A stretch of DNA of 64,000 nt from Longimicrobiales bacterium (GTDB lineage Bacteria > Gemmatimonadota > Gemmatimonadetes > Longimicrobiales > Gaopeijiaceae). The stretch covers positions 1,604,603-1,668,602 of the forward strand of contig OZ245327.1 in NCBI GenBank assembly GCA_965225805.1. The letters are read 5' to 3'. Below are positions 49,601 through 63,331 of this stretch, one piece after another. The notes beneath the pieces were generated by a model. It was not told the origin of the DNA and did not search any database. It saw nothing but the letters and a program-made list of their open reading frames with translations. Made by a program: the position numbers and the translations under genes. Position 1 is the first letter of the stretch. The number at the start of each line of letters is the position of its first letter.

Positions 49601-49896
49601 TCGGTTTCGCTGTGGCAGGTGGGGTCGTGGCCGGTGCCTCGGGGGATGAGCCAAGACTCGACGAGTGGCTGGTGAAGAAGGGCCGTCTGCGGGCCAGGGC
49701 CGCGAGAGTTGAGATCCCCGAAGCAGAGAGCGAGGGAACGACGGACCTGGAATCGCCCGAATCGGTGGGCGACGCTCCTGAGCGTAAGACTGAGGACTCC
49801 GCGGTGCGTGCTCCCGTCCTGCCCCGAACCGGGGCGAAGATCTGGAGGATGTTGCGTCGACTCGAACAGCGGGGCTTCACGTCCTTCGTCGAGTGA
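46642..49896 (+). CDS. McrB-like AAA+ (AAA_5) NTPase with an N-terminal extension of about 640 aa
   Basis: FAILTGVSGTGKTSLA (Walker A), FFVVLDEMNLARVEHYFSDFLS (Walker B and the McrB-type MNLA block), FFTGTVNVDETTYMFSPKVLDRAF. The N-terminal 640 aa are unassigned. Confidence 0.8.
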   Translation: MLSNDDIRFGNTRGRPVRFFRVQVSWDGGQTFVPALVMRGDVGDGQDRNKRPFTVAWAATSELERRVVAALGRVEHGYSAKDTKNALRGLLRHIPRDYVPTDSRVPEDLEKRIAESPWRLENRYGPLKAWEQEADSAALRRAVMTDRADVPGKDRLLSLVRSRYPGWLGFSDPRFDGGLYDEVQYKLETVAKAKELLSKQALRSLIDAGDHGEMIERLKVIGRDTNLLFRPYSPGGDLDLLYHAGLEHRVFCEAFLSLLHGDDDAPHRLDRYSDQVRSMGLPPNVNRWAMPTYFLFFLYPNEEVLIKPGTVRTLLDLGGWGGKLGVEPSGEEYVRVRTAYSDLREALEKHEPRHMIDVQGFAWVAVQEAKERAKAAKRARETGDEQDPRIDRAMEEFEREADAHDLIRQQKLLEQAQVRFREIFGTVSKIKSLSPDGFFDLFNELDARNSRSTGLFRLGLSFPKNRNTQAYRDLEDDLPTFRRALVELLYGAGSEAESLDRMWEIGRVRGRVRNYITESLIMPSALLFLQDPTKWSSVMKMEVKEKKVALAGIAPVLADDASLGERFVALERALIQLPPKYGRNHWTPMTISAFYFNQDVERHFDGPPRPKPRPSPRSLTSLIQSLEDCGLRFSRETVANYVLALQTKQFAILTGVSGTGKTSLAIEVARYFGLRAEDPDALSSKNAADSGDGHYTVVPVRPDWVDNRGLLGYYNPLTNDYSPTPVLRLLLRARAERKRAQEEERKPSPFFVVLDEMNLARVEHYFSDFLSAMESGEAVPLHHDPSVERREMQASGSSRSDADASVPIPMTLKVPDNVFFTGTVNVDETTYMFSPKVLDRAFTCELNEVDLRSYESGRGDDGPNELTLDALRPLGRSHRGEPSEVQGKRSQSGWKPNRHDWLEFCKLSGGRFRDRLLELHGVLEGEHRHFGYRVANEIARFVLLAHAQSSNKDIAVEAAFDLAVLQKVLPKFHGTQQELEPLLRRLLGFAVAGGVVAGASGDEPRLDEWLVKKGRLRARAARVEIPEAESEGTTDLESPESVGDAPERKTEDSAVRAPVLPRTGAKIWRMLRRLEQRGFTSFVE

Positions 49897-51650
49897 TCGC
49901 CCACGCCTACTCCACCGGCAACATCGCCGTCCGCCGGTGGGATGCCGGTCCGGACGGACCAGAACATGCTGGCCCCGTTCCCCAGCGGTTGCAGACCGAA
50001 TGGAAGTGGGTCGTCGAGGCACCGGAGAAAGCGCTGGACGACATGGCGCACGCGTTGCCAAGAACTGCGTTCACCCGACCCGCGAACAGAGTGCTCATCC
50101 TGGACTTGGTCAACTCGGTAGGCATCCTCGACCTTCCGCACATCGGGCAGGTGGAGCTCGTAACGGGGAAGTTCCACGAGGACGACTTCGAGGCGATGCT
50201 TCGAGACATCACCGAATGGTCGGCCGCTCTGCCTTTCTCAGCCGATCAGCCCGCTTCGTTCCGCTACGCCAACAGTAGGGTACTCCGTGACGAGATCCTC
50301 TACCATACCTTCGTCTATCTTCGCCACGTCCTCTCCGACCGCGCTCCCCGATCGTCCCGTTTGATGCCTGCGCTAAAGAGGATTCACATGGAGCCCCACC
50401 GAATCTGGCTCACGGATCGCCACGAGGTGCGGATCGAGACCGCCTCCCGGGTCGACTCGCGTACCCTCATAGACCTGATTGCGCGGGGCGGACGACCGGT
50501 TTCCGAGGCGTCCCTGTCGCCGAAGGGAAGAGCGCTGGCCGAGCGGTTGGGCATGCGACTCCCCGAAGTGGTCACGGAACGGAGGATCAGGGCCACGACC
50601 GATACCCAGGAGAACCGGTTCGTGAAAGCCTTTGTCCACCAAGCCACCGGGATCATCGCGCGGATCCGGTCGGCGACCGAGGCTCGCCGCCCGACATCGT
50701 TCAGCACGCGCGTGCTGCGAGACTGCGAGCGAATGACGGAGTCGTTGACCCCGGTCGTTCGGCATCCGATGTGGAAGGAGGTGGGACGGATGACCAGAAT
50801 CCCGTTCTCTTCCACCGTCCTGCAACGCCATCGCGGATACCGGCGGGTCCTCAGGCATTGGGCGAGAATCAGGCTGGCCCCGCGAATCCCGCTGAACCGG
50901 GACGAGATGCGCGACATGCTGGAACTCAAGAACATCGCGCTCCTTTACGAACTGTGGACGTTCCATCGCCTCGCGTCCTGCATCAATCAGTTGGTAGGAC
51001 CCCCCAAACAAACCGGTCGGATGATCGGCGATGACTTCCAAGTGGATCTCGCAAGGGGAGAAGCGTTCGAGTGGGCTTCTGGAATCCGGTTGGCGTACAA
51101 CCCCACGTTTTCTCGCCGGGCCGCTCATGTCCCGAATCGATCCTATTCCGTAGAACTGCGACCCGACGCTGCCCTCTGGATTCCGAGTGGAGTGAACCGC
51201 GGAATCCATCTCTTCGATGCCAAGTTTCGGCTTCGCTCCCTCTCCGAAGCCGGGGCGACGGAATCCTCGGGCGGTGCCACAACCGAGAAAACCGACGAGA
51301 GGAGAGGCAACTTCAAGCGAGCCGACATCTACAAGATGCACACCTACAGGGATGCGATTCAGGGCGCCCGCTCCGTGTGGATTCTCTATCCGGGCAGCGA
51401 GTTCCGTTTCTTCACCGCCTCCGGTAGAGGCCGAGTCACGTCCCCAGGAGGGTTGCCGGACGCGCTACTGGGGGTGGGAGCGATCCCGCTGGTGCCGAGT
51501 CGCGAAAACGGGGCGGCGAGCGTTCGGTCGGGCGTAAGCGGGCCGCTGGAAGCAACGCTTCGGCGACTGTTGGCGTCAGGGAAAGACCGAGGCTCTCCCG
51601 AGTGGCACTCGTCTTCTACGACGCACTCGAAGGTGCCGACATCGGTGTAG
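49893..51650 (+). CDS. McrC-like / DUF2357-type PD-(D/E)xK nuclease partner
   Basis: GTGA overlap with the upstream gene. IHLFDAKFRL...ADIYKMHTYRDAI...VWILYPG resembles the McrC nuclease core (D...DAK...Y.m..Y). Confidence 0.7.
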   Translation: MIAHAYSTGNIAVRRWDAGPDGPEHAGPVPQRLQTEWKWVVEAPEKALDDMAHALPRTAFTRPANRVLILDLVNSVGILDLPHIGQVELVTGKFHEDDFEAMLRDITEWSAALPFSADQPASFRYANSRVLRDEILYHTFVYLRHVLSDRAPRSSRLMPALKRIHMEPHRIWLTDRHEVRIETASRVDSRTLIDLIARGGRPVSEASLSPKGRALAERLGMRLPEVVTERRIRATTDTQENRFVKAFVHQATGIIARIRSATEARRPTSFSTRVLRDCERMTESLTPVVRHPMWKEVGRMTRIPFSSTVLQRHRGYRRVLRHWARIRLAPRIPLNRDEMRDMLELKNIALLYELWTFHRLASCINQLVGPPKQTGRMIGDDFQVDLARGEAFEWASGIRLAYNPTFSRRAAHVPNRSYSVELRPDAALWIPSGVNRGIHLFDAKFRLRSLSEAGATESSGGATTEKTDERRGNFKRADIYKMHTYRDAIQGARSVWILYPGSEFRFFTASGRGRVTSPGGLPDALLGVGAIPLVPSRENGAASVRSGVSGPLEATLRRLLASGKDRGSPEWHSSSTTHSKVPTSV

Positions 51651-52097: not shown

Positions 52098-53348
52098 ATG
52101 GTAGAACCCAAGGCTTGGTTCGCCGGCGTGGACTGGGCGTCGGAAGCGCATCACGTCTGCGTAGTCGGCGGCGACGGCTCGAAGCGGGCGGAACGCATCT
52201 TCCGCCACGGAGGCGCGGGGCTGGCGGAGATGGCCGAGTGGATCGCCGCCAAGTCCGGAGGGTCCGCCCCGGACATTCCGGTGGCGATCGAAGTCCCGCA
52301 CGGGCCGGTCGTCGAGAGCCTCATGGACCGGGGGTTCGCGGTCTACGCGATAAACCCGAAGCAGCTCGACCGGTTCCGCGACCGCTTCTCGCCGGCCGGC
52401 GCCAAGGACGACAGCCTCGATGCCCGCGTCCTCGCCGACGCGCTGAGGACCGATCTTCGCCACTTCCGGAGGATCGACCCGGTCGACCCGACCGTCATCG
52501 AACTCAGGGCATGGTCGCGGATCGCCGAGGAGCTCACCCGGGACCGCGTTCGCCTGTCGAACCGCGTGCGAGAGCAGCTGTGGCGCTACTACCCGCAGAT
52601 CCTCGAAGCGGTCGGAAGCGTGGTCGAGCCCTGGTTCCTCGACCTCTGGGCCAAGGTTCCGACGCCCGCGAAGGCCCGGCGGGTCCAGCGCCGGACCCTC
52701 GAGAGCCTGCTCAAGCGCCACAGGATCCGGCGGATCACGGCCGACCAACTCGTCGAGATCCTCCGCGCCCCGGCCATCGCCGTCGCACCCGGTACCACCG
52801 AGGCCGCGGTGGCCCACATCCGGAGCGCTTCCGAACGCCTCCGCCTCATACAGCGCCAACTCGCCGACGCCAAGCGGAAGATCGCCCGCCTGATCGACGT
52901 CTTGGCCGGCAGCGAGGACTCCGGCTCCGGCCAACCCGGCGGGCAGCGCGACGTGACGGTCCTCTCCTCCCTGTCCGGAGTCGGCCAGACCGTCCTCGCC
53001 ACGCTGCTCGCCGAGGCCCCCCAAGCGCTGGCGCGCCGGGACTACAAGGCGCTGCGGTGCATGTGCGGCGTAGCGCCGGTCACACGGCGATCCGGCAAGT
53101 ACAAGCTCGTCGTGCGCCGCATGGCCGCCCACGCCCGCCTTCGCGACGCAGTGTACCACTGGGCACGGGTCGCGGTCCAGCTCGATCCCGTCAGCAAGGC
53201 CAAGTACGCCGCCCTTCGCGGGCGCGGCCACGGCCATGCGCGCGCCTTGCGTTCCGTCGCGGACCGCCTGCTCGCAGTCGCCTGCGCCATGCTCAGAACC
53301 CAGACCTGCTACCGGCCTCCACAGCCAGCGGAGGATCATGCGGCCTGA
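52098..53348 (+). CDS. IS110-family transposase
   Basis: 416 aa: FAGVDWASEAHHVCVV (DEDD N-terminus), INPKQLDRFRDRFSPAGAKDD, LSSLSGVGQTVLATLLAE, CGVAPVTRRSGK. Confidence 0.85.
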   Translation: MVEPKAWFAGVDWASEAHHVCVVGGDGSKRAERIFRHGGAGLAEMAEWIAAKSGGSAPDIPVAIEVPHGPVVESLMDRGFAVYAINPKQLDRFRDRFSPAGAKDDSLDARVLADALRTDLRHFRRIDPVDPTVIELRAWSRIAEELTRDRVRLSNRVREQLWRYYPQILEAVGSVVEPWFLDLWAKVPTPAKARRVQRRTLESLLKRHRIRRITADQLVEILRAPAIAVAPGTTEAAVAHIRSASERLRLIQRQLADAKRKIARLIDVLAGSEDSGSGQPGGQRDVTVLSSLSGVGQTVLATLLAEAPQALARRDYKALRCMCGVAPVTRRSGKYKLVVRRMAAHARLRDAVYHWARVAVQLDPVSKAKYAALRGRGHGHARALRSVADRLLAVACAMLRTQTCYRPPQPAEDHAA

Positions 53349-54268: not shown

Positions 54269-55342
54269 GTGCCATACCAGCGAGTGAAGGTATTCGACTT
54301 CTTCTCTGGTTGCGGCGGGGCCAGCCGTGGTTTCCAGGACGCCGGAATGGACATCGTGTTCGCTCTCGATTGGGACGCGGACGCCGAGCGGACCTTCCAA
54401 CGGAATTTCCCGTCATCCGCCTTTGAGTCCAAGGACATTCGGGAGGTGGAGGAGGACTCCGTCCACAAGCTTGTGGTCAAACACCGGCCGCATCCTGTTC
54501 TCTTCTGCGGATGTGCCCCTTGCCAGCCGTTCACCAAACAGAACACCATCCGTCCCGAACCCGAGGAGGATGAACGGGTGCCGTTGCTTCTCGATTTCCT
54601 GCGGTTCATCCGAAGGTGCGAGCCCGACATCGTGTTCGTCGAGAATGTCCCGGGTATCCAGAACGTATCTCCTGACTCCGAGCCGCTCGCCGGGTTTCTT
54701 CAGGGATTGAAGGACGCTGGATACCCCGGTCCGGCACGCGCTTCGGTACCCTTGAGGCGGTACGGAGTCCCCCAGAGCCGCCGCAGATTTCTCCTGCTCG
54801 CGAGTCGACACGGACCGATCGAACTCCCACCCGAGACCCACGGTCCGGGAACGCCCAACCCGGAATTCGCCACGGTGCGCGACTGGATCGGAGACCTTCC
54901 CAAGATCGACGCCGGCCAGAGCCACCCGGAGATTCCCAACCACCGGGCGGCCGGCCTGTCCTCGCTCAACGCGAAGCGCATCAGGGCAACCCCGGAGGGC
55001 GGTGGCAACAGGGATTGGTTGGAGGAGGATCTTCGGCTGGAGTGCCACAAGAAGGCCACCGGATACAGTGATGCCTACGGTCGTATGTCGTGGGACCGGC
55101 CCGCCTCCGGTCTCACGACACGATGCATCAGCTATTCGAACGGCCGATTCGGCCACCCCGACCAGGATCGTGCGATCAGCGTCCGGGAAGCCGCGTGCCT
55201 TCAGACATTCCCGATGGGTTTTCGCTTCTCCGGTAGCCTGAACTCGATGGCTCGGCAGATCGGCAACGCGGTGCCGGTGCGTTTGGCGACCATTGTTGGA
55301 GAGCACGTCGCCAGACATCTGGTCGCGGCAGGCGCGACCTGA
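54269..55342 (+). CDS. dcm: DNA (cytosine-5)-methyltransferase
   Basis: FDFFSGCGGASRGF (motif I), GCAPCQPFT (PC catalytic motif IV), ENVPG (VI), QSRRRFLLLAS (VIII), QIGNAVPV (X). The start is GTG 54269 or GTG 54284. Confidence 0.9.
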   Translation: MPYQRVKVFDFFSGCGGASRGFQDAGMDIVFALDWDADAERTFQRNFPSSAFESKDIREVEEDSVHKLVVKHRPHPVLFCGCAPCQPFTKQNTIRPEPEEDERVPLLLDFLRFIRRCEPDIVFVENVPGIQNVSPDSEPLAGFLQGLKDAGYPGPARASVPLRRYGVPQSRRRFLLLASRHGPIELPPETHGPGTPNPEFATVRDWIGDLPKIDAGQSHPEIPNHRAAGLSSLNAKRIRATPEGGGNRDWLEEDLRLECHKKATGYSDAYGRMSWDRPASGLTTRCISYSNGRFGHPDQDRAISVREAACLQTFPMGFRFSGSLNSMARQIGNAVPVRLATIVGEHVARHLVAAGAT

Positions 55343-58317
55343 TGGCGATGGACGTAAGCTTCAAGGCCCGGGCCAGGACGCTGGACATGCTGGGGAGACA
55401 GCAGATCGCCGGCATACCCACCGCCATCAGCGAGCTTTTCAAGAACGCGTACGACGCAGACGCCGAGCGGGTGGAGGTGGACTATTACCGCAGCAACAGA
55501 CTCTTTGTGCTGCGGGACGATGGTTTCGGGATGGAAGCGGAGGAATTCGTCGAGCGATGGCTCACCATCGCTACCGAGACCAGCGTCAAGCGGAAGCGCG
55601 CGGAAAGGCGGCTCCCTCGGTCGGAGAAGCGCACCAGGCCCGTACTGGGGGAGAAGGGAATCGGTCGCCTCGCCATCGCTACAATCGCTCCTCAGGTGCT
55701 GGTGCTCACCCGCGCCCTTCGCGACGGCGTCTTGTCCGATCTCACAGCCGCCTTCCTGAACTGGAGGCTCTTCGAGTGCCCCCGGCTCGACCTCCAGGAT
55801 ATCCGGATTCCGCTTCGCACGTTTCCAGGCGACAGTTTGCCCGACAGCGAGGACGTGGCAGACATGGTCGGCTATTTCCAGAGCCGGAACGCACACCTTC
55901 GGGAGCAAGTCGACCCGAGCGAATGGGACCTGATCGAGACCGACCTCGCGCGGTTCGCGGTCGATCCTCTGGACATGGCCGATTTTTTGGGTGAGCCGAC
56001 GCTTCTCGCCGGGGGTCACGGTACGCACTTCTACCTTCTCCCCGCGTCCTCCAACCTAGCCTATGACATCGCTGGGGATACAGATTCCGATGTCGCGCCG
56101 CCGATCCAGAGAGCACTGCTGGGATTCACCACCCCCTCAATGGCGGGCCGTGCCGAACCGGTCATCCGCACCGTCTTTCGGGACCACAGCACTGACGGAA
56201 TCTGCGAAGACCTCATCGGCGGACACGAGTTCTTCACTCCCTACGATTACGAGAACGCGGATCACCAGGTCTGGGGACGATTCGACGATTACGGCCAGTT
56301 CAAGGGCAACGTCTCCGTCTACGCAGAGACCGTGCACGACCATGTGATCAACTGGAGCGGAGGCAAGGGACGGAAAACGGCTTGCGGTCCCTTCCGCATC
56401 AGGTTCGCCGCAATCGAAGGCGCGGCCAGATATTCGACCCTTCCGCCCGCGGAACACGGTCGCATGCTTGAGAAGACCAGAAGAATCGGTGGCTTGTACA
56501 TCTATCGGGACGGCGTGCGCATTCAACCCTACGGAAACACGGACTACGACTGGCTGGAGATCGAGCTGCGCCGGACGAAGAGCGCGTCGTACTACTACTT
56601 CTCGTACCGGCAGATGTTCGGAATGGTCGAAATCGATTCCACCCACAACAGAGGTCTTCAAGAAAAAGCGGGTCGTGAAGGCTTTCGCGCCAACAAAGCC
56701 TACCGTGATCTGCGCGACATTCTGAAGAGTTTTCTCGTCCAGATCGCCGCCGACTTCTTCCGCGAGGAGGGAGTTCAAGGCGAGAGGTTTGCGAGTCGCA
56801 AGCGGGAGTTGGACGAGACCGAGCGACATCGGCGTGCGCGAGCCAGGCAGGTCACCGCCAAGCGCGGCAAGTTCAAGAAGGACTTGGCCGCGTTCTTCGA
56901 CCGAATGGAGATGGAGAAACCGCTTGAGAGAGTCATGGCACTGGGACTGGAGGCCGAGTCGCGTGTAAGGGAGGCCGGCCGCGATCCGGACCGCGCGAGG
57001 GCGGCCAGGCGGATCATCAAGATCGAACGCGATGCAAGGAGAGACCTCGGGGATCTGGAGGCCCGCTACCGGGTTTCCAAGCCGAGGATCGGCATGACCC
57101 GGGCCTTGCAGAAGGAGTGGAGAGACTATCGGGAGGCGTTCGAGGATCTCGTCGGCAGCGTGCGGGACATCCGCGACTCGATTGAGAGTGTCGTCACGAA
57201 GGAGGTGACCAAAGCGGGGGTTGACGTGAGTGCCAGAGAGCGCATGGAATCGGCTCTCACCGAGATCGGACAATCTGCGAGGCGCGACACGAAGGCGGGC
57301 CGGAGAGAAGTGGAAAAGGTGGCCGAGGAGATCTGGACCGGCACGCGAACGATAGCGAGCCAATGTGTGCGAGAGGTCGAGTCGACGATTCGCGCCGTGA
57401 TGGCCGACTTCGCTCGGCGTGATCTTCAGGGCATGGACGACCAGCGCCTGATCGCGGAACGTTCGGGCCTGGAGGCGCGGATCCGCGAGGCACTGGAGAA
57501 CGCCACCCTCACCCTCGACTCCTTGCGCTCGCAACTGGCGGCCATCGACTTGAAGGGCAAGTCCTCTCTCGTGGATCAGCTCGCGGCGGTGGAACAGAGC
57601 AACGTCACCCTAAAGGAACAAGCGGCGGCCGACCTCCAGCTCGCCCAGCTCGGCATGGCGATCGAGATCATCAGCCACGAATTCGGGGCCGCCATCCGAT
57701 CCGTCCGATCGGGGCTTCGTAGCCTCAGGAGATGGGCCGACGTGAACCAGGAACTGATGTCGCTGTACCAGGGCATCCGCGGCAGCTTCGACCATCTCGA
57801 CGGTTACCTGACTCTCTTCACGCCCCTCCAGAGAAGGCTTTACAGAAAGGCGGTGGACATTCGCGGCTGGGAGATCCACGAGTTCCTGGCCAACCTGTTC
57901 GGCCAGCGGCTGGCCAGACACAACGTCGAACTGACCAGGACCGAGGCGTTCGCCAGCGCCGCCGTTCGAAGCTATCCATCATCCTTCTACCCGGTGTTCG
58001 TCAATCTCGTGGACAATGCGATCTATTGGCTTTCCGGCCAGAACGAGCGCCTTGAACGACGAATCGAGCTTGATGCGTCGGGCAACAGGTTCCGCATCTC
58101 GGACTCGGGTCCCGGGATCCACACCCGGGATTGCGACGACATCTTCGACATCGGGTTCACTCGCAAGCCGGGAGGTCGCGGCATGGGGTTGCATATCGCG
58201 AGGGCAACGCTGCGCGAGATTGGCTATGACCTGAACCTTGAAGCGAGCGAGCCGGGCCATGGGACGACATTCCTGATCGCACCGATCGAGGACGAGGACG
58301 AAGAGACCGATGCCTAG
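55342..58317 (+). CDS. double GHKL protein: N-terminal MORC/Hsp90-like ATPase head + coiled coil + C-terminal histidine-kinase core (DHp + CA)
   Basis: The ATG overlaps the dcm TGA (TGATG). Head: ELFKNAYDA, DDGFGM, GEKGIGRLA. Tail: IEIISHEF (H-box, His codon 57676..57678), NLVDNAIYW (N), DSGPGI (G1), GGRGMGLHIA (G2). No TM or PAS/HAMP seen. Confidence 0.75.
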   Translation: MAMDVSFKARARTLDMLGRQQIAGIPTAISELFKNAYDADAERVEVDYYRSNRLFVLRDDGFGMEAEEFVERWLTIATETSVKRKRAERRLPRSEKRTRPVLGEKGIGRLAIATIAPQVLVLTRALRDGVLSDLTAAFLNWRLFECPRLDLQDIRIPLRTFPGDSLPDSEDVADMVGYFQSRNAHLREQVDPSEWDLIETDLARFAVDPLDMADFLGEPTLLAGGHGTHFYLLPASSNLAYDIAGDTDSDVAPPIQRALLGFTTPSMAGRAEPVIRTVFRDHSTDGICEDLIGGHEFFTPYDYENADHQVWGRFDDYGQFKGNVSVYAETVHDHVINWSGGKGRKTACGPFRIRFAAIEGAARYSTLPPAEHGRMLEKTRRIGGLYIYRDGVRIQPYGNTDYDWLEIELRRTKSASYYYFSYRQMFGMVEIDSTHNRGLQEKAGREGFRANKAYRDLRDILKSFLVQIAADFFREEGVQGERFASRKRELDETERHRRARARQVTAKRGKFKKDLAAFFDRMEMEKPLERVMALGLEAESRVREAGRDPDRARAARRIIKIERDARRDLGDLEARYRVSKPRIGMTRALQKEWRDYREAFEDLVGSVRDIRDSIESVVTKEVTKAGVDVSARERMESALTEIGQSARRDTKAGRREVEKVAEEIWTGTRTIASQCVREVESTIRAVMADFARRDLQGMDDQRLIAERSGLEARIREALENATLTLDSLRSQLAAIDLKGKSSLVDQLAAVEQSNVTLKEQAAADLQLAQLGMAIEIISHEFGAAIRSVRSGLRSLRRWADVNQELMSLYQGIRGSFDHLDGYLTLFTPLQRRLYRKAVDIRGWEIHEFLANLFGQRLARHNVELTRTEAFASAAVRSYPSSFYPVFVNLVDNAIYWLSGQNERLERRIELDASGNRFRISDSGPGIHTRDCDDIFDIGFTRKPGGRGMGLHIARATLREIGYDLNLEASEPGHGTTFLIAPIEDEDEETDA

Positions 58318-59905
58318 CAATGGCTTTACCGAGCACTGTCGAGAGATCGCCCGGCGATTCCTCCTGACAGCGATCGTCGTTGATGACGAACTCTCGGTTC
58401 CCGCGGACCCACCCGTCCACGGCGATCTGACGGCTCCAGAGCGGAGCGCACCGGTGCGACGCGGGCCAACATCGGTGAACCCCCAGCTCCATCCCCGCCG
58501 ACCGCTCAAAATCGACCCGATCACATGGTCTTTCGCCCGCCAAGGCATGGTTTGCGGCGTGATGTCACCCGAAGGAAGGCAAGACGACCTTGGCGCCCTC
58601 GCCAATGCCGTCGCTCGTGCGGACATCGTCATTCTGGACTGGCGGCTGAGCCGATCTAGCGGTGCGAACGCGTTGCCGTTGTTGAAGCGAATCCTGACAG
58701 AGGATCAGCCGAACCGGCTTCGCCTGATCGCTGTCTATACGGGAGAACCCGACCACGAGGCGATTCGCGAAAAGATCGCAGACGGTCTGAACAGCCTCGA
58801 TACCTCCGATCAGGCGGTATCGGCAGGAGATAGCCACCGTGGTCGGATCGACTTCCGGGCCTGTCGTATCGTCGTATACGGGAAACCCGGTTCTCTTGCC
58901 CCCGAGCGGAGGAGAGTCAGGGAAACAGCGTTGGCCGACCGGCTCATCGGCGATTTCGCGGAGATGGTCGAGGGGCTATTGCCCAGCTTGGTTCTGACGG
59001 CATTGGCTGCGGTCCGAGACAACGTGTACCGTGTACTGGAGCGCTTCGGGCGGGACTTGGATCCGGCCTTCCTGGTACACCGCGCCTGTCTCCCACAGCC
59101 TCCAGAATCGGAGCAGCACATCGTCGAACAGATCGCCAGCGAACTCCACGGGATCATGGACGATGTGGTAGGCAGGACGAGTCCGGCGGGAATCGAGGCG
59201 ATCGAGCGGTGGATCGGCGATCGCTTCGGGAATGACGATGTCGTGTTCGGTCCGAAACACAAGGCGGCCACGCCCATCGTCCTTAAGATGCTGAAGGATG
59301 GACTGAAGGAGCAACCCGGACCTCTAGGCCTCGGAAAGTACCACCTTCTCTCGCATGGGCTTTCGGGCGGCCTTGCCATGAGCCATGAGCTTGATCGCCG
59401 TCTCGCGTCGGCGATGGACTTGAGACAGGTGGTTGCGGACACTGAGCGGCAATTGTCGATGGGGACGGTTGTCCGCCAGACCGGAGACGAGGGTTCAGCG
59501 CTCCTGTGCGTCACACCGAGATGCGACAGCGTCCGATTGACCGGTAAGTCATCTTTCCTCTTTCTTCCTCTGTCAACTGCGAAGGAAAACACGCCGCAGG
59601 TCGTGGTCCCGACTGACGACCGCGGTTTCCGCCGCATGACCATAATCATGAATCCATCGCAGTGGCGTATTGAGGACTTCGAGCCCGAACCAGCCCGGCA
59701 GTGCGTCCTCGCACGCCGCAGTGGGCCGGATCAGCCTTTCACCTTCAAGGATGTCGCTGGCGCAGCATACCGTTGGGTGGGAGAGCTGAAGGCGGAAGTC
59801 GCGCAGTCCATTGCCCAAGGGATCGCGGAGAGAATGTCCCGGATGCCCCTAAACAGGTCGGAATGGCTCAGGCGGTCGGCGCGCGTTGGAGAGCGAGCAA
59901 GGTAA
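58310..59905 (+). CDS. REC (receiver) domain protein with an unassigned C-terminal region of about 340 aa
   Basis: 8-nt overlap with the upstream gene. LLTAIVVDDE (acidic pocket), ADIVILDWRL (phospho-acceptor Asp codon 58637..58639), LIAVYTGEP, IVVYGKPG (conserved Lys-Pro). I recognise no motif in residues about 190-531. Confidence 0.65.
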   Translation: MPSNGFTEHCREIARRFLLTAIVVDDELSVPADPPVHGDLTAPERSAPVRRGPTSVNPQLHPRRPLKIDPITWSFARQGMVCGVMSPEGRQDDLGALANAVARADIVILDWRLSRSSGANALPLLKRILTEDQPNRLRLIAVYTGEPDHEAIREKIADGLNSLDTSDQAVSAGDSHRGRIDFRACRIVVYGKPGSLAPERRRVRETALADRLIGDFAEMVEGLLPSLVLTALAAVRDNVYRVLERFGRDLDPAFLVHRACLPQPPESEQHIVEQIASELHGIMDDVVGRTSPAGIEAIERWIGDRFGNDDVVFGPKHKAATPIVLKMLKDGLKEQPGPLGLGKYHLLSHGLSGGLAMSHELDRRLASAMDLRQVVADTERQLSMGTVVRQTGDEGSALLCVTPRCDSVRLTGKSSFLFLPLSTAKENTPQVVVPTDDRGFRRMTIIMNPSQWRIEDFEPEPARQCVLARRSGPDQPFTFKDVAGAAYRWVGELKAEVAQSIAQGIAERMSRMPLNRSEWLRRSARVGERAR

Positions 59906-59923: not shown

Positions 59924-60367
59924 TCACACCTCCGATCCCTTGACGGCCTCCCCTTCCTCCGGTCGCAGGAACCCGGCAATCCGTCTGGCCACCACCGCGA
60001 CATCCGTCGTCTCGCACTCCCAGATCACCATTACCCGCCAGCCGAGGTCGTGCAGGGCGGTCTCGTTGCGCCGGTCGCGGATCACGTTCCCTTTGAACTT
60101 GTCCTCCCAGAACTGCACACGGGTCTTGGGGCTTGAGGCGTACTTGCAGCCGGGATGCCGATGCCAGAAACATCCATGCACCATGATGACGGCCCGATGG
60201 CGGGGGAGCACGATGTCCGGGGAACCTGGAAGACGCTTGCAGTGCAGGCGGAAGCGGAAGCCGAGTCTGTGAGCGATCCGGCGGACGATCATCTCCGGCA
60301 TGGTGTCGCGGCTGCGGATCCGGGACATCATCTCACTTCGTGTTAGGCTGTCGACGATGTCGGTCAT
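59924..60367 (-). CDS. vsr: very short patch repair endonuclease
   Basis: RSEMMSRIRSRDTMPEMIVRRIAHRLGFRFRLHCKRLPGSPDIVLPRHRAVIMVHGCFWHRH...FWEDKFKGNVIRDRRN...GWRVMVIWECE. Convergent with the REC gene, stops 18 nt apart. Confidence 0.9.
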   Translation of the reverse strand: MTDIVDSLTRSEMMSRIRSRDTMPEMIVRRIAHRLGFRFRLHCKRLPGSPDIVLPRHRAVIMVHGCFWHRHPGCKYASSPKTRVQFWEDKFKGNVIRDRRNETALHDLGWRVMVIWECETTDVAVVARRIAGFLRPEEGEAVKGSEV

Positions 60368-60906: not shown

Positions 60907-61895
60907 TCAAATCCCGCCCCCGGAGAAGCGGCTCGAAACCCATACCGAATAGCCGTGGATCATTCCTCCGGGGAGGCCCGATCGGAGCAGAGCCCTCATC
61001 TCAACGAGGCGGTGAAGGCAGCCGTTGAGACCGCCCAATTCCTTGACCGCCGCGTCGTCCATTCCCCGGATGGCATTCTCGACGCGCGCAATCTCGCGCC
61101 GGACGGCTGCGATGGTCTTGGGCTGCTGGTTGGGCTCTTGGGCGGTGGCGGCGCCGACCCAGTTTCCCAGGATCGTCCGTGCGCGTTCGAGTTCCCTCCG
61201 ACCGCCTGCGACCCTGGCGACCTCGACCGACAGGCTCTGCTCCCTCAGCGCTTCCCATAGCCCATGGTGCCGATCCCGCCACGAGCGGAGCGCGGTCGAG
61301 GTGTCGTAGCCGGGATCGGCGGGCACGAACACGGCGCGGCTGGAGTCCAGCGCCACGGGCATCCCGCGGGGAAGTACCGCCGCGCGCCCCCGGCGGCGCC
61401 CCGGTAGATCCGGACGGGCAGGAGCGAGCGACTGATGTCGAGTACCTCGAACGCGGCGACCTTCTCCGCCTCGGTGGGCAGCCAGGGCAGGCCGGTGTGC
61501 TCGATCACGTAGTCGAAGGAGAGCAGGCGGCGCATGGCCACCTCGGGCGAGGTGATCCTCCGGTGGCGCACACCTTCGGCACCCAGTGCGCGGTAGATGC
61601 CGCGCGCGCAGATCCGGCAGACCTTCAGGTCTCCGACCATCTCCTCGGCGGCCAGCCTTCGGTCCCTCAGGCCCTGCACGAACCGGAGCGCCGTGAAGCG
61701 GCTGACCCCGAGCCACGCAGAGAACTGCTTGCGGGTGAACACGCCTCCGTGCAGGCTCGCCAAGGCGATCCACTCGGCGCGGCGGCCCGTCAAGCCGAAC
61801 GGCTCCAGCGCCTTCTCGCGCCCCTGTAGATGGTCGATCACCAAGGCCGCCGTTGGTCGAGGGCTTTGCTGTACATGAGGGTTCCCAATTCCCAC
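60907..61895 (-). pseudogene. winged-helix (replication-relaxation-like?) protein, frameshifted in a C-run near 61368
   Basis: Frame 1 reads ...GVFTRKQFSAWLGVSRFTALRFVQGLRDRRLAAEE...LPVRIYRG...RYFP. Frame 2 continues RGMPVALDSSRAVFVPADPGYDTSTALRSWRDRHHGLWEAL... The family call is tentative. Confidence 0.4.
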
Positions 61896-62131
61896 GGGCG
61901 CACCCTGGTTCCGTGGTCGGGACCGAGAACCGTGGAGGTTGTCACTGCCGACAGAATCGGAAGAGGGCTTGCGGCGGCGTCAAGTCGCGTATGCGGGCCA
62001 TAGTCCCGAGCCGTCCGGTGCCGTCCCGGACGCGGACCTGCTTCCGGCAGCGCTCCTCCATCGCTTTCGAGAAGCCAACAGCGCGGGTATCGCACTGGTC
62101 AAGCCGCCTTCGTCCAGCGAGATTCCTTCGC

Positions 62132-62147
62132 GCAGATCGTGCAGTCC
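62132..62147 (+). promoter_or_regulatory. conserved 16-mer GCAGATCGTGCAGTCC upstream of the integrase start
   Basis: 18 nt upstream of ATG 62165. Context ...GAGATTCCTTCGCGCAGATCGTGCAGTCCATCAAGAGAGGAATCGAATGATG. Confidence 0.4.
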
Positions 62148-62164
62148 ATCAAGAGAGGAATCGA

Positions 62165-63331
62165 ATGATGGCACGCACGAAACGAAGTCGGCGCTCCTAC
62201 GGCGCTGGCGAATGGGGCCGGAACCGGGTCCGGGTGTTTCCGGATGCCAAGACCGGCATTTTCCAGATCGAGTGGCGAGAGAACGGGCGCAGGCTCACCC
62301 GGTCCCTCAAACACCGCGACTGGTCGCGCGCGAAGCGGCAAGCGGACGAGTTCGCCGCGGGCTTCGCGGGGCCGGGCCTGAACGGCGAGGCCGAAGCCGA
62401 GCCCGAGCCGCTCAAGCTGGGATCGCTTTTTGACATCTACGGCGAAGAGGTGACGCCCACGAAGGGGAGACGGACGCGCCAGCGCGACTTGGTCGCGACC
62501 AGGATGTTCCTCCGCTTCTTCGGACGGGACCGAAGACCCGAAACACTGTCGCAGCGCGACTGGGATCGGTTCATCCGGGAACGGCGCGCGGGCAGGGCCG
62601 GACGCTCGGGCAAGCCCGTAGGCAACCGGACGATCGAATGGGACCTGACGTTCCTGATGACGGTGCTCAACTGGGCCGCAAGGTCAAGGGACGAACACGG
62701 ACGGCTGCTCCTCGACTCCAACCCGCTCAAGGGCCTCAGAAAGCCCAAGGAGAAGAATCCCAACCGGGTCGTCCTCACCGAGGACGAATACTAGGCGCTG
62801 CTCGGGGTTTCCCGGCAGGTCGGCTGGCGGTTCCATGTCGCGCTCGTGCTCGCGCACGAGACCGGGCACCGGATCGGTGCCATCCGCGAGCTCCGTTGGG
62901 ATGACATCGACATCGAGGGCCGCGAGGTCCGGTGGCGCGCGGAGCACGAGAAGACCGGCTACGAACACGTCACGCCCCTGACCGCCGAGGGGGTCGCCGC
63001 CCTGGAGGAGGAACGAAGCAGGAGCGAAGGAACCAAGAATGGCCCGGTGCTGCCGTCGCCGAGGGATGCCACGCAGTGCATGAGCCGCGTTGCCGCCCAC
63101 AAGTGGTGGAAGAAGGCGGAGACCCTCGCGGGACTGGAGCCGAGGCGGGGACGGGGCTGGCACTCGCTCCGTCGCAAGTTCGCTTCCGATCTCATGGACC
63201 TGCCGCTCAAGGTGCTTTGCGAGCTTGGCGGCTGGAAGAAGGCCCAGACGGTGCTGCGCTGCTACCAGCAACCCGACGCGGTACAACTCAGGAAGGCTCT
63301 GGACAACCGCCGCCGCAACGGTCGGGCCTGA
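62165..63331 (+). pseudogene. island integrase with a single in-frame TAG (62792..62794)
   Basis: MMARTKRSRRSYGAGEWGRNRVRV...VVLTEDEY*ALLGVSRQVGWRFHVALVLAHETGHRIGAIRELRW...GWHSLRRKFASDL. Both ORFs (61853..62794 and 62846..63331) are in the same frame. Confidence 0.8.

What the first reader, a model, noticed from the sequence alone, without database searches (positions are those of the whole stretch)
58310..59905. Receiver-domain protein whose ~340-aa output domain matches nothing I can recognise
- The REC fold is clear: LLTAIVVDDE, ADIVILDWRL, LIAVYTGEP, IVVYGKPG. It carries an unusual ~55-aa Pro/Arg-rich insertion after beta-1.
- Residues about 190-531 have no DNA-binding HTH, GGDEF/EAL, PNP, nuclease (PD-D/ExK, HNH, PLD) or TIR motif that I can spot.
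- As the last gene of the dcm operon, this is the logical place for the effector of the candidate system.
Basis: partly seen in the sequence, partly recalled or inferred. Interest (0 to 1): 0.7.

Follow-up and report, generated by a model that had tools for sequence, protein, structure and literature searches.

The report
Receiver-fused effector of methylase-linked kinase cassette
This gene encodes the receiver-domain partner of a DNA-methylase-linked, MORC-like histidine kinase, a three-gene cassette predicted in 2021 but never tested; its unannotated C-terminal half folds partly like a MazF/CcdB toxin and is probably the switchable effector of a restriction-like defence module.

Summary
The ORF is real (58310-59905, +, 531 aa). 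Its N-terminus is a divergent receiver, Pfam PF19192 Response_reg_2 (E 4e-33), with all phospho-acceptor residues intact. It is not an orphan novelty. Bellieny-Rabelo et al. 2021 (PMC8011034) described this family by computation, together with the adjacent 991-aa paraMORC/HEF_HK kinase, the C5-methylase and Vsr.

The C-terminal ~335 aa is still undescribed: nothing in Pfam, NCBIfam, PADLOC or PDB sequences. A confident AlphaFold model (pLDDT 92.8) shows a helical subdomain plus a beta-barrel. The barrel's only structural neighbours are MazF/PemK toxins, and only at fold level (Foldseek E 7.5e-3, TM 0.5-0.65, no profile similarity).

In 72 species-level loci with enough upstream DNA, the methylase (69) and the kinase (70) lie collinear upstream. 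No separate nuclease is conserved. Related cassettes carry a receiver-only protein plus a separate HNH endonuclease. The kinase's N-terminal ATPase is homologous to that of BbrUII/HgiDII restriction enzymes.

Best reading: a phosphorylation-gated effector, probably acting on nucleic acid, of a mobile restriction-like module. This is inferred, not shown. Verdict: new member of a known but uncharacterised kind; moderate interest.

The parts
54269..55342 (+). C5 cytosine DNA methyltransferase (357 aa), first gene of the cassette
   Evidence: PF00145 E 2.5e-49 and TIGR00675. Its stop overlaps the next gene's ATG by 1 nt. It is collinear upstream of the receiver gene in 69 of 72 related loci.
55342..58317 (+). 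991-aa paraMORC-type GHKL ATPase fused through a coiled coil to a histidine kinase (HK-like, HEF_HK family)
   Evidence: HATPase_c_3 at residues 27-125, HEF_HK PF19191 at 769-835 (E 4e-27), HATPase_c at 882-979. The N-terminal 113 aa match the BbrUII/HgiDII restriction-enzyme model, E 3e-23. Motifs are conserved in 69 homologues.
55432..55665 (+). ATP-binding motifs of the N-terminal GHKL head (ELFKNAYDA, DDGFGM, GEKGIG)
   Evidence: Positions. At least 95% conserved across 69 homologues.
57646..57846 (+). DHp-like HEF_HK domain with the presumed phospho-His (H779 in ISHEF)
   Evidence: PF19191 covers residues 769-835. The H of HEF is at least 95% conserved.
57985..58278 (+). Catalytic HATPase_c domain of the kinase (N, G1 and G2 boxes DNAIYW, DSGPG, GGRGMG)
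58310..59905 (+). The finding: 531-aa receiver-plus-effector protein (RR-like)
58358..58891 (+). Response_reg_2 receiver domain (residues 17-194)
   Evidence: PF19192 E 4e-33. Key residues D25/D26, D110, T144, K192 are conserved.
58391..58510 (+). About 40-aa Pro/Arg-rich disordered insertion between beta-1 and alpha-1 (residues 28-67)
   Evidence: 9 Pro and 5 Arg. pLDDT ~33. Family-wide loop extension.
58637..58639 (+). Codon of D110, the predicted phospho-acceptor
   Evidence: 100% conserved in 118 sequences.
58973..59425 (+). Helical subdomain of the output region (residues ~222-372) with conserved R236, D251, H257, R258, E278, W301
   Evidence: AlphaFold model pLDDT 92.8. Conservation. No structural neighbour.
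59447..59791 (+). Beta-barrel subdomain (residues ~380-494) with a MazF/CcdB-like fold
   Evidence: Foldseek top hits are MazF from about six species, E 7.5e-3 and weaker, probability 0.95-1.0, target-normalised TM 0.5-0.65.
59507..59536 (+). Signature loop C400-V-T-P403-R-C405-D406-S-V-R409. C405 and D406 are invariant even in the most distant partner proteins.
59792..59887 (+). C-terminal helices (residues 495-526) carrying the conserved L-K/R-x-E-x-A ... S-R511-x-G motif and SEWLRR
59924..60367 (-). Vsr very-short-patch repair endonuclease, convergent; an accessory of the C5 methylase
   Evidence: PF03852 and TIGR00632. Present within 10 kb in 43 of 72 related loci, in three different positions.

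Best explanation
The protein is the phosphorylation-gated output subunit of a self-contained, horizontally mobile three-gene cassette: C5 DNA methylase, paraMORC-histidine kinase, and receiver-effector. Vsr is an optional accessory.

Proposed mechanism:
1. The methylase marks host DNA, and Vsr repairs the T:G mismatches that 5-methylcytosine deamination creates. The domains are shown; the roles follow from established knowledge.
2. The 991-aa protein uses its MORC/MutL-like GHKL+S5 head to engage DNA with ATP. This head is homologous to the ATPase head of BbrUII/HgiDII restriction enzymes. It reports unmodified or foreign DNA through its coiled coil to the C-terminal kinase. This step is inferred.
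3. The kinase autophosphorylates on H779 and transfers the phosphoryl group to D110 of this protein. All catalytic residues are conserved; the transfer itself is inferred.
4. Phosphorylation of the receiver, probably through dimerisation, releases or assembles the C-terminal module: a helical subdomain plus a MazF/CcdB-like barrel carrying the invariant G385, C405-D406 and R511. That module then attacks nucleic acid.

I lean towards DNA cleavage, acting as the 'R' activity of a signal-transduction-coupled restriction system. RNA cleavage with abortive infection is the close alternative. The module takes the place that a separate HNH endonuclease occupies in sister cassettes.

The confidence of 0.5 applies to 'phospho-gated effector of a methylase-linked defence-like cassette'. 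For DNA cleavage specifically I would give about 0.25-0.3.
For: Family and partners:
- PF19192, HEF_HK and HATPase_c_3 hits.
- Published 91.6% linkage of the two genes and enrichment of R-M genes around them (PMC8011034).

Cassette integrity:
- Of 72 GTDB species-level loci with enough upstream DNA, 69 have the methylase and 70 the full kinase, collinear at fixed spacing.
- Clustering of all flanking ORFs finds no other conserved gene. A frequently adjacent type I R-M system (about 21-25 loci) is the only recurrent neighbour.
- Gene order is permuted in distant versions while the trio is kept, for example Rhizobium kinase-receiver-methylase-Vsr.

Effector position:
- Deinococcus gobiensis and Klebsiella cassettes have methylase, GHKL-kinase, a receiver-only protein, then a separate HNH endonuclease.

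Ancestry:
- The kinase's N-terminus matches NF050001 (BbrUII/HgiDII restriction enzyme) at E 3e-23.
- A full member of that family sits with dcm and vsr in L092.

Fold and conservation:
- The model has pLDDT 92.8.
- Its only consistent structural neighbours are MazF/PemK toxins.
- The C-D ... R signature persists in every non-HNH partner protein down to undetectable overall identity.

Signalling residues:
- Intact in the receiver and in the kinase.

Mobility:
- 59-75% identity across different phyla.
- IS or integrase disruptions in 7 of 72 loci.
- In the window, GC is 0.62 against 0.65-0.70 in the flanks, and the region carries IS110, relaxase and integrase genes.

Precedent:
- Detocs shows that a kinase-receiver-effector operon can be a true anti-phage system (10.1101/2023.01.24.525353).
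Against: - No biochemical or genetic test exists for any member.
- The output domain has no known nuclease motif. PD-(D/E)xK, HNH and PLD are absent from Pfam and Foldseek results.
- The MazF similarity is weak: no hit reaches E<=1e-3, rmsd is 4-6 A, and it has no profile support (hhalign probability 0.3%).
- By my secondary-structure mapping, the MazF catalytic Arg and Thr are not conserved. This mapping is inference only.
- The domain is unrelated to the C-terminal part of BbrUII/HgiDII enzymes.
- A diffusible phosphorylated effector cannot itself tell self from foreign DNA. True 'restriction' would need it to stay in complex with the kinase; otherwise the outcome is abortive infection.
- PADLOC does not list the protein as a defence component.
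- I could not inspect model coordinates, so I could not test whether the invariant residues cluster in space.
Confidence: 0.5

Rival explanations
1. It is a regulatory two-component system, as the 2021 paper suggested. The kinase senses an intracellular cue such as NTP level or DNA state. The receiver protein's C-terminal domain is a DNA- or protein-binding regulator that tunes expression or activity of the methylase or of neighbouring R-M systems, and it is not an effector.
For: - The discoverers of the family proposed this (PMC8011034).
- No catalytic motif is recognisable in the output domain.
- The helical subdomain contains a helix-helix-beta-hairpin stretch (residues ~269-320) that could be a winged-helix-like element. 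This rests on my reading of secondary structure only.
- A type I R-M system is often adjacent.
Against: - No HTH or winged-helix hit appears in Pfam or in the Foldseek results.
- The cassette travels as a unit between phyla and on plasmids, independent of any fixed target genes.
- Sister cassettes put an HNH nuclease, not a regulator, after the receiver.
- The kinase's sensor head derives from a restriction-enzyme ATPase.
- The invariant Cys-Asp and Arg look catalytic rather than structural.
Confidence: 0.2
2. It is an abortive-infection toxin. The barrel is a true, highly diverged MazF/PemK-type endoribonuclease, held inactive in cis by the helical subdomain and receiver. After phosphorylation it cleaves cellular and phage RNA and arrests growth. 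The methylase only stops the sensor firing on host DNA.
For: - All significant structural neighbours are MazF-family RNases from several species.
- MazF works as a dimer, which fits receiver-driven dimerisation. This rests on established knowledge of MazF and of receiver domains.
- Detocs shows that two-component abortive infection exists.
- A freely diffusing activated effector is easier to reconcile with abortive infection than with site-specific restriction.
Against: - There is no sequence-profile similarity to MazF and no Pfam PemK or CcdB hit.
- The MazF catalytic Arg in the beta1-beta2 loop has no conserved counterpart, because that hairpin is short. The family's own invariants (C405, D406, R511) are not MazF residues (the mapping is inferred).
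- Sister systems use HNH, typically a DNase.
Confidence: 0.2
3. It is a decaying or non-functional remnant: the operon in this window is a relic on a degraded mobile island and the protein has no current function.
For: - The island carries an IS110 element, an integrase reading frame broken by a stop, and a relaxase.
- 7 of 72 related loci are visibly disrupted.
Against: - All three genes in the window are full length and translationally coupled.
- Every signalling and ATP-binding motif is intact.
- The protein shares 57-75% identity over its full length with the 31 homologues in alignment A1, and 58 of the best 120 hits align over 100% of the query.
Confidence: 0.05

Closest known systems
RR-like / HK-like 'TCS-like' pair of Bellieny-Rabelo, Pretorius & Moleleki 2021 (Pfam PF19192 Response_reg_2 + PF19191 HEF_HK)
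   Same: Same protein family (115 bits to PF19192). Same partner: HATPase_c_3 + HEF_HK + HATPase_c. Same upstream C5 methylase and downstream Vsr. This is exactly the arrangement reported for 644 regions in 628 strains.
   Different: Nothing essential; this is another member. The paper characterised only the receiver and DHp-like domains and proposed a regulatory role. The ~335-aa C-terminal domain, its fold and its signature were not described there.
BbrUII/HgiDII family Type II restriction enzymes (NCBIfam NF050001), a GHKL/paraMORC-type enzyme family paired with an m5C methylase and Vsr
   Same: The N-terminal GHKL ATPase head of the partner kinase is homologous (E 3e-23). The same methylase and Vsr company is seen in L092.
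   Different: Only about 113 aa match (82 bits against a family cutoff of 550). The restriction enzyme's C-terminal part is replaced by a coiled coil plus histidine kinase. The receiver protein's output domain is unrelated to that C-terminal part (hhalign probability 0.2%).
Detocs (DtcA kinase, DtcB buffer receiver, DtcC receiver-PNP effector)
   Same: Same logic: a cytoplasmic sensor kinase, phosphotransfer to a receiver fused to a toxic effector in place of a DNA-binding domain, encoded in one operon and found in defence contexts.
   Different: Different families throughout. There is no TPR sensor, no buffer receiver and no PNP domain. This cassette has a DNA methylase and a MORC-like ATPase sensor, which Detocs lacks. 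There is no PADLOC hit.
MazF/PemK/Kid (and CcdB) toxins
   Same: The barrel subdomain with its C-terminal helix has this fold as its only structural neighbour (probability up to 1.0, TM 0.5-0.65 on the target).
   Different: No sequence or profile similarity. The catalytic residues are apparently not conserved. There is no antitoxin gene. The barrel is embedded after a receiver and a 150-aa helical subdomain, and it has its own invariant C-D ... R signature.
Prokaryotic MORC/paraMORC restriction-modification operons (Iyer, Abhiman & Aravind 2008)
   Same: A GHKL+S5 ATPase is linked to cytosine methylases, Vsr and a nuclease component. Nuclease modules are exchangeable (RecB-like, TIR, HxH).
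   Different: Here a histidine kinase and a receiver are inserted between the ATPase and the presumed effector. That paper does not mention a receiver.

Membership tests
Pfam PF19192 Response_reg_2 / RR-like OG_4 (PMC8011034) | HMM match above the gathering score | tested here: met
   115.5 bits against a cutoff of 27, residues 17-194.
Pfam PF19192 Response_reg_2 / RR-like OG_4 (PMC8011034) | Conserved acidic pair, phospho-acceptor Asp, Thr and Lys of the (beta-alpha)5 receiver | tested here: met
   D25, D26, D110, T144 and K192 are present and 91-100% conserved.
Pfam PF19192 Response_reg_2 / RR-like OG_4 (PMC8011034) | Adjacent gene encoding HEF_HK (usually with an N-terminal HATPase_c_3) | tested here: met
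   The upstream 991-aa gene has PF13589 + PF19191 + PF02518, with an 8-nt overlap.
Pfam PF19192 Response_reg_2 / RR-like OG_4 (PMC8011034) | Neighbourhood enriched in R-M genes, typically a C5 methylase upstream and Vsr downstream | tested here: met
   In relatives: methylase in 69 of 72 loci, Vsr in 43 of 72.
Canonical two-component response regulator | Match to the standard receiver model PF00072 | tested here: not met
   Only PF19192 is reported at E<=1.
Canonical two-component response regulator | Phosphotransfer from the cognate kinase His to the receiver Asp | not testable with these tools
Canonical two-component response regulator | Known output domain (HTH, GGDEF, EAL and the like) | tested here: not met
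   No hit beyond residue 194 in Pfam or NCBIfam. No such fold appears in Foldseek results.
Detocs | DtcA/DtcB/DtcC homologues (TPR kinase, buffer receiver, receiver-PNP) | tested here: not met
   No PADLOC hit for the receiver protein, and only REase_II/LeoA fragments for the kinase. There is no third receiver gene in the operon.
MazF/PemK/CcdB toxin superfamily | Characteristic SH3-like barrel with a C-terminal helix | tested here: inconclusive
   MazF chains are the top Foldseek hits for two models (E 7.5e-3 to 0.4, TM on target 0.5-0.65, rmsd 4-6 A), but none reaches E<=1e-3.
MazF/PemK/CcdB toxin superfamily | Sequence-profile membership (PemK_toxin / CcdB) | tested here: not met
   No Pfam hit. 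hhalign of the barrel profile against five MazF-family sequences gives probability 0.3%.
MazF/PemK/CcdB toxin superfamily | Adjacent antitoxin gene | tested here: not met
   No small upstream or downstream partner exists in the window or in the 79 related loci.
Type II R-M of the BbrUII/HgiDII kind | Full-length match of the R protein to NF050001 | tested here: not met
   The kinase protein scores 82 bits against a cutoff of 550, on its N-terminal 113 aa only. A true member scores 753 bits.
Type II R-M of the BbrUII/HgiDII kind | Cognate methylase adjacent | tested here: met
   The C5 methylase lies immediately upstream and is translationally coupled.
Known nuclease folds (PD-(D/E)xK, HNH, PLD) | Catalytic motif or fold in residues 196-531 | tested here: not met
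   No Pfam hit and no restriction-endonuclease-like Foldseek neighbour. The candidate 'P-x-C-D ... E492-x-K494' fails because E492 and K494 are not conserved in distant members.

The most novel reading that the evidence does not exclude
The cassette is a restriction system with a built-in signal-transduction step. A MORC-like ATPase clamps DNA, reads its methylation state, and converts that into a His-to-Asp phosphorelay. The relay licenses a previously unrecognised effector class: the 'C-D barrel', a MazF/CcdB-derived module with an invariant Cys-Asp and Arg. This effector is shared by many GHKL-kinase cassettes that pair with m5C, N6A or N4/N6 methylases, and is interchangeable with HNH nucleases.
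Probability: 0.3. Interest if true: 0.8.

Novelty: new member of a known kind. Interest (0 to 1): 0.5.

Why it matters
If the reading is right, this widespread cassette would be the first restriction-like system in which self/non-self recognition on DNA is passed to the effector by a histidine-aspartate phosphorelay. The output domain alone has more than 1300 clusters at 50% identity, across many phyla and on plasmids.

It would also add a new effector fold to the defence repertoire. Bacterial MORC-type ATPases, whose biochemistry is still poorly understood, would be linked to a readable output, namely phosphorylation.

Practically, it gives a small, clonable three-gene unit with clear point mutants to test: H779, D110, C405, D406 and R511.

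Tried and rejected
- **PD-(D/E)xK reading** of 'TPRCD ... GELK'. Rejected: E492 and K494 are not conserved in distant members, and the fold is not restriction-endonuclease-like.
- **Zinc or deaminase-like 'C-x4-C' site.** Rejected as a universal feature: C400 is replaced in the Campylobacter and Allorhizobium partners, and only C405-D406 are invariant.
- **True MazF homology.** The profile comparison was negative. Only fold-level similarity is claimed.
- **Homology of the output domain to the C-terminal part of a bona fide BbrUII/HgiDII enzyme.** Negative.
- **Library searches.** PDB sequence searches with the single protein and with a profile found nothing. BFVD viral structures gave only noise. 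PADLOC gave no hit.
- **A separate conserved nuclease gene in 79 related loci.** None found. The only recurrent neighbour is a type I R-M system.
- **L059 as an intact kinase and receiver without a methylase.** Rejected: an integrase-bearing element has replaced the methylase and clipped the kinase start.
- **Source organism.** Exact look-ups of two window proteins failed.
- **The search for related loci with the diverse alignment A2.** It failed for lack of a conserved stretch, so A1 was used instead.
- **Three-dimensional check.** I had no access to model coordinates, so I could not test whether the invariant residues cluster.
Full report
**1. What is at the coordinates**

The window contains an ATG-to-TAA ORF at 58310-59905 on the + strand, encoding 531 aa. 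Three genes are translationally coupled:
- A C5 cytosine methylase at 54269-55342 (PF00145, E 2.5e-49).
- A 991-aa protein at 55342-58317, whose ATG overlaps the methylase stop by one base.
- The finding itself, whose ATG lies 8 nt before the stop of the 991-aa gene.

A Vsr gene (59924-60367, - strand) converges on it, 18 nt downstream.

**2. The receiver domain**

Residues 17-194 match Pfam PF19192 Response_reg_2 at 115.5 bits (cutoff 27, E 4e-33). The standard receiver model PF00072 does not match.

In an alignment with 117 representatives at 50% clustering, the key residues are conserved: D25 98%, D26 94%, D110 100%, T144 91%, K192 99%.

The insertion after beta-1 is real but about 40 residues (28-67; 9 Pro, 5 Arg). 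It is predicted disordered (pLDDT ~33). It is a property of the whole family rather than of this protein (PMC8011034; distant members).

**3. The family is already described**

A full-text search for the Pfam names found Bellieny-Rabelo, Pretorius & Moleleki 2021 (Genome Biol Evol; PMC8011034). [quoted passage not shown]
- The two genes are adjacent in 91.6% of 644 regions.
- The kinase-like protein usually carries an N-terminal HATPase_c_3 (paraMORC-like) domain.
- C5 methylases lie upstream and Vsr often directly downstream.

They proposed a cytoplasmic two-component-like system that might regulate R-M systems. They did not analyse the ~335 residues C-terminal to the receiver. No other paper in the library uses these names for this system. 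Iyer et al. 2008 on paraMORCs does not mention a receiver.

The window's partner protein has exactly the published architecture: HATPase_c_3 at 27-125, HEF_HK at 769-835, HATPase_c at 882-979. In 69 homologues several features are at least 95% conserved:
- The ATP-binding motifs of both GHKL domains.
- An S5-like 'GGLYIYR..PYG' segment.
- The His of the HEF box (H779).

**4. The output domain**

Residues ~196-531 hit nothing in Pfam, NCBIfam or PADLOC. They also hit nothing among PDB sequences, whether searched alone or as a 103-sequence profile.

Searched alone against 1.84 billion cluster representatives, the domain finds 1358 clusters at E<=1e-3. Most of the best 150 are ~500-600-aa proteins in which the match starts at about residue 190-250, leaving room for an N-terminal receiver; the rest are shorter. 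A few are receiver-less ORFs on very short contigs.

A first full-length AlphaFold model was mediocre (pLDDT 65). A second model of residues 196-531, built on a diverse alignment, is confident (pLDDT 92.8, pTM 0.85). It shows three elements:
- Helix alpha-5 of the receiver.
- An eight-helix subdomain (~222-372) with one beta-hairpin.
- An eight-stranded barrel (~380-494) followed by two helices.

Foldseek against the PDB gives no hit at E<=1e-3. However, about 25 of the top 50 hits, including ranks 1-18, are MazF/PemK toxins, from E. coli, Klebsiella, S. aureus, M. tuberculosis and Deinococcus. The figures are: best E 7.5e-3, probability 0.95-1.0, TM 0.5-0.65 normalised on the ~105-aa targets, rmsd 4-6 A.

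The weaker full-length model returns the same family first. That is not independent evidence. The helical subdomain has no neighbour, and BFVD gives only noise.

At sequence level the similarity is not detectable. hhalign of the barrel profile against five MazF-family sequences gives probability 0.3%. By my secondary-structure mapping, the MazF catalytic Arg and Thr have no conserved counterparts; this is inference.

I therefore claim a MazF/CcdB-like fold, not membership of that family.

**5. Conserved residues**

Within the close-to-moderate family, the conserved polar residues are R236, D251, H257, R258, E278, C400, C405, D406, R409, R511, E518 and R521.

I then added the partner proteins of very distant cassettes: Pantoea, Pseudoalteromonas, Rhizobium, Allorhizobium, Campylobacter, Burkholderia glumae and Agrobacterium. 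With these, the universal core shrinks to three elements:
- A Gly at the start of the first barrel strand (G385).
- The dipeptide C405-D406, after a hydrophobic strand and usually a Pro.
- An Arg (R511) in a C-terminal 'L-K/R-x-E-x-A ... S-R-x-G' helix.

hhalign links our profile to the Rhizobium protein at 95% and to the Allorhizobium protein at 75%.

Two tempting readings fail:
- **PD-(D/E)xK.** E492 and K494 are not conserved.
- **A two-Cys zinc or deaminase-like site.** C400 is not universal.

**6. Genomic context in relatives**

A scan of GTDB species genomes returned 79 loci from many groups: Acidobacteriota, Gemmatimonadota, Rhodothermales, Opitutales, Nitrospirota, Latescibacterota, Binatia, several Proteobacteria, Chloroflexota and others. 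Identity between phyla reaches 59-75%, which points to horizontal transfer.

Among the 72 loci with enough upstream DNA:
- 69 have the C5 methylase and 70 the complete kinase, collinear at constant spacing.
- Vsr is present in 43: 25 upstream on the same strand, 14 downstream convergent, 4 downstream co-directional.

Clustering all flanking ORFs found no other conserved gene. The only recurrent neighbour is a type I hsdR-hsdM-hsdS set in about 21-25 loci.

Seven loci are visibly decayed:
- 1.25-kb and 2.15-kb insertions split the receiver gene in two loci.
- ~1.4-1.5-kb insertions split the kinase gene in two loci.
- The methylase is lost in three loci; two of these also have an incomplete kinase.

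No separate nuclease accompanies the trio. If the cassette restricts anything, the activity must therefore reside in the kinase protein or, more plausibly, in this protein's output domain.

**7. Sister cassettes and ancestry**

The kinase's first ~113 residues match NCBIfam NF050001, the BbrUII/HgiDII family restriction enzyme, at E 3e-23, but far below the family cutoff (82 against 550 bits). A true member (753 bits) sits beside a C5 methylase and Vsr on a Deinococcus plasmid. Its C-terminal part is unrelated to our output domain.

Other plasmid hits to the same ATPase head show shorter GHKL-kinase proteins (650-800 aa) paired with other methylase types, namely Eco57I-like, N6 and N4/N6.

Two of these are especially informative. 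In Deinococcus gobiensis and Klebsiella variicola, the gene after the kinase encodes a receiver-only protein of 215 or 168 aa, with weak PF00072 hits. The next gene is an HNH endonuclease (PF01844, E 3.8e-10 and 3.4e-4).

So the position that the 'C-D barrel' occupies as a fusion in our family is occupied by a stand-alone DNA endonuclease in relatives. This is the strongest contextual argument that the output domain is an effector acting on nucleic acid.

**8. Local context in the window**

The cassette sits in a mobile, defence-rich stretch:
- An AAA-like 1084-aa gene plus a DUF2357/PDDEXK_7 (McrC-like) gene at 46642-51650.
- An IS110 transposase at 52098-53348.
- A relaxase at 44277-45821.
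- An AbiEi-like regulator at 61245-61895.
- An integrase whose reading frame is broken.

GC in the cassette is 0.62, against 0.65-0.70 around it.

**9. Mechanism and its status**

Shown:
- Domain identities.
- Conservation of all signalling and ATP-binding residues.
- Fixed three-gene architecture.
- Mobility.
- Fold-level similarity to MazF.
- Substitution by HNH in sister systems.

Inferred:
- The MORC-like head senses unmodified DNA.
- H779-to-D110 phosphotransfer occurs.
- Phosphorylation activates the output domain.
- That domain cleaves DNA (my preference) or RNA.

Detocs provides the validated precedent for a defensive kinase-receiver-effector operon. It shares no family with this cassette, and PADLOC finds nothing here.

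The main rival is the regulatory role proposed in 2021. I rate it lower for three reasons: no DNA-binding fold is detected, the cassette has no fixed target genes, and relatives carry a nuclease in the equivalent place.

**10. Verdict**

The effector interpretation is plausible and now better supported, but still untested. The gene is a new member of a family that is already named yet functionally uncharacterised.

What this analysis adds:
- A confident model of the output domain.
- Its MazF/CcdB-like barrel.
- The invariant G ... C-D ... R signature, shared by partner proteins of many GHKL-kinase cassettes.
- The HNH substitution.

Interest is moderate (0.5). It would be high if a phosphorelay-gated restriction mechanism were demonstrated.

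Noticed in passing
window 46642-49896 and 49893-51650 (+): A 1084-aa protein with only a weak AAA_16 hit is followed, with overlapping genes, by a 585-aa DUF2357 + PDDEXK_7 (McrC-like) protein. This looks like a McrBC-like or other ATPase-nuclease defence pair just upstream of the cassette. PADLOC has no hit for the second protein.
   Followed up: partly
window 52098-53348 (+): An IS110-family transposase (DEDD_Tnp_IS110 + Transposase_20) is inserted between the McrC-like gene and the dcm operon.
   Followed up: partly
window 61853-63331 (+), 61245-61895 (-), 44277-45821 (-): The tyrosine-integrase C-terminal half (62846-63331) is separated by a stop or frame break from a 313-aa upstream ORF. 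An AbiEi-like HTH protein and a MobA/VirD2-type relaxase lie nearby. The region looks like a degraded integrative mobilisable element.
   Followed up: partly
window 37589-42271 (+): A 1560-aa protein carries Big_2/Big_1 Ig-like domains, many leucine-rich repeats and a Peptidase_M66 segment. It is unrelated to the finding.
   Followed up: no
L087 4544-9511 (Deinococcus gobiensis plasmid P2); L085 4676-9545 (Klebsiella variicola plasmid): Sister cassettes have an Eco57I-like or N6 methylase, a shorter GHKL-histidine kinase, a receiver-only protein, and a separate HNH endonuclease. I did not find this four-gene variant described in the papers read.
   Followed up: partly
L084 8262-9491, L088 8182-9177, L089 7073-8266, L091 7125-8444: Partner proteins of other GHKL-kinase subfamilies (331-439 aa, annotated hypothetical or response regulator) share the C-terminal 'hydrophobic strand - x - C-D ... 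L-R-x-E ... R-x-G' signature with the finding, despite no detectable overall similarity. This suggests a much wider effector domain family.
   Followed up: partly
L024 8140-10289, L066 8800-10052, L017 and L063 within the kinase gene, L059 upstream of the kinase: Insertions of 1.25-2.15 kb, or integrase-bearing elements, interrupt the receiver, kinase or methylase genes in several MAGs. This pattern of decay is typical of costly or selfish modules.
   Followed up: partly
L093 434-1456, L094 162-1184, L095 203-1222: Receiver-less ORFs consist only of the output domain (339-340 aa), on short metagenomic contigs. One is directly followed by Vsr, and none has a kinase upstream. It is unclear whether they are relics or stand-alone versions.
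   Followed up: partly
about 21-25 of the related loci, e.g. L004 14085-19621, L045 417-5354: A complete type I R-M set (hsdR, hsdM, hsdS) lies immediately next to the Vsr-methylase-kinase-receiver cassette. This recurrent defence-island pairing was also noted statistically in PMC8011034.
   Followed up: partly
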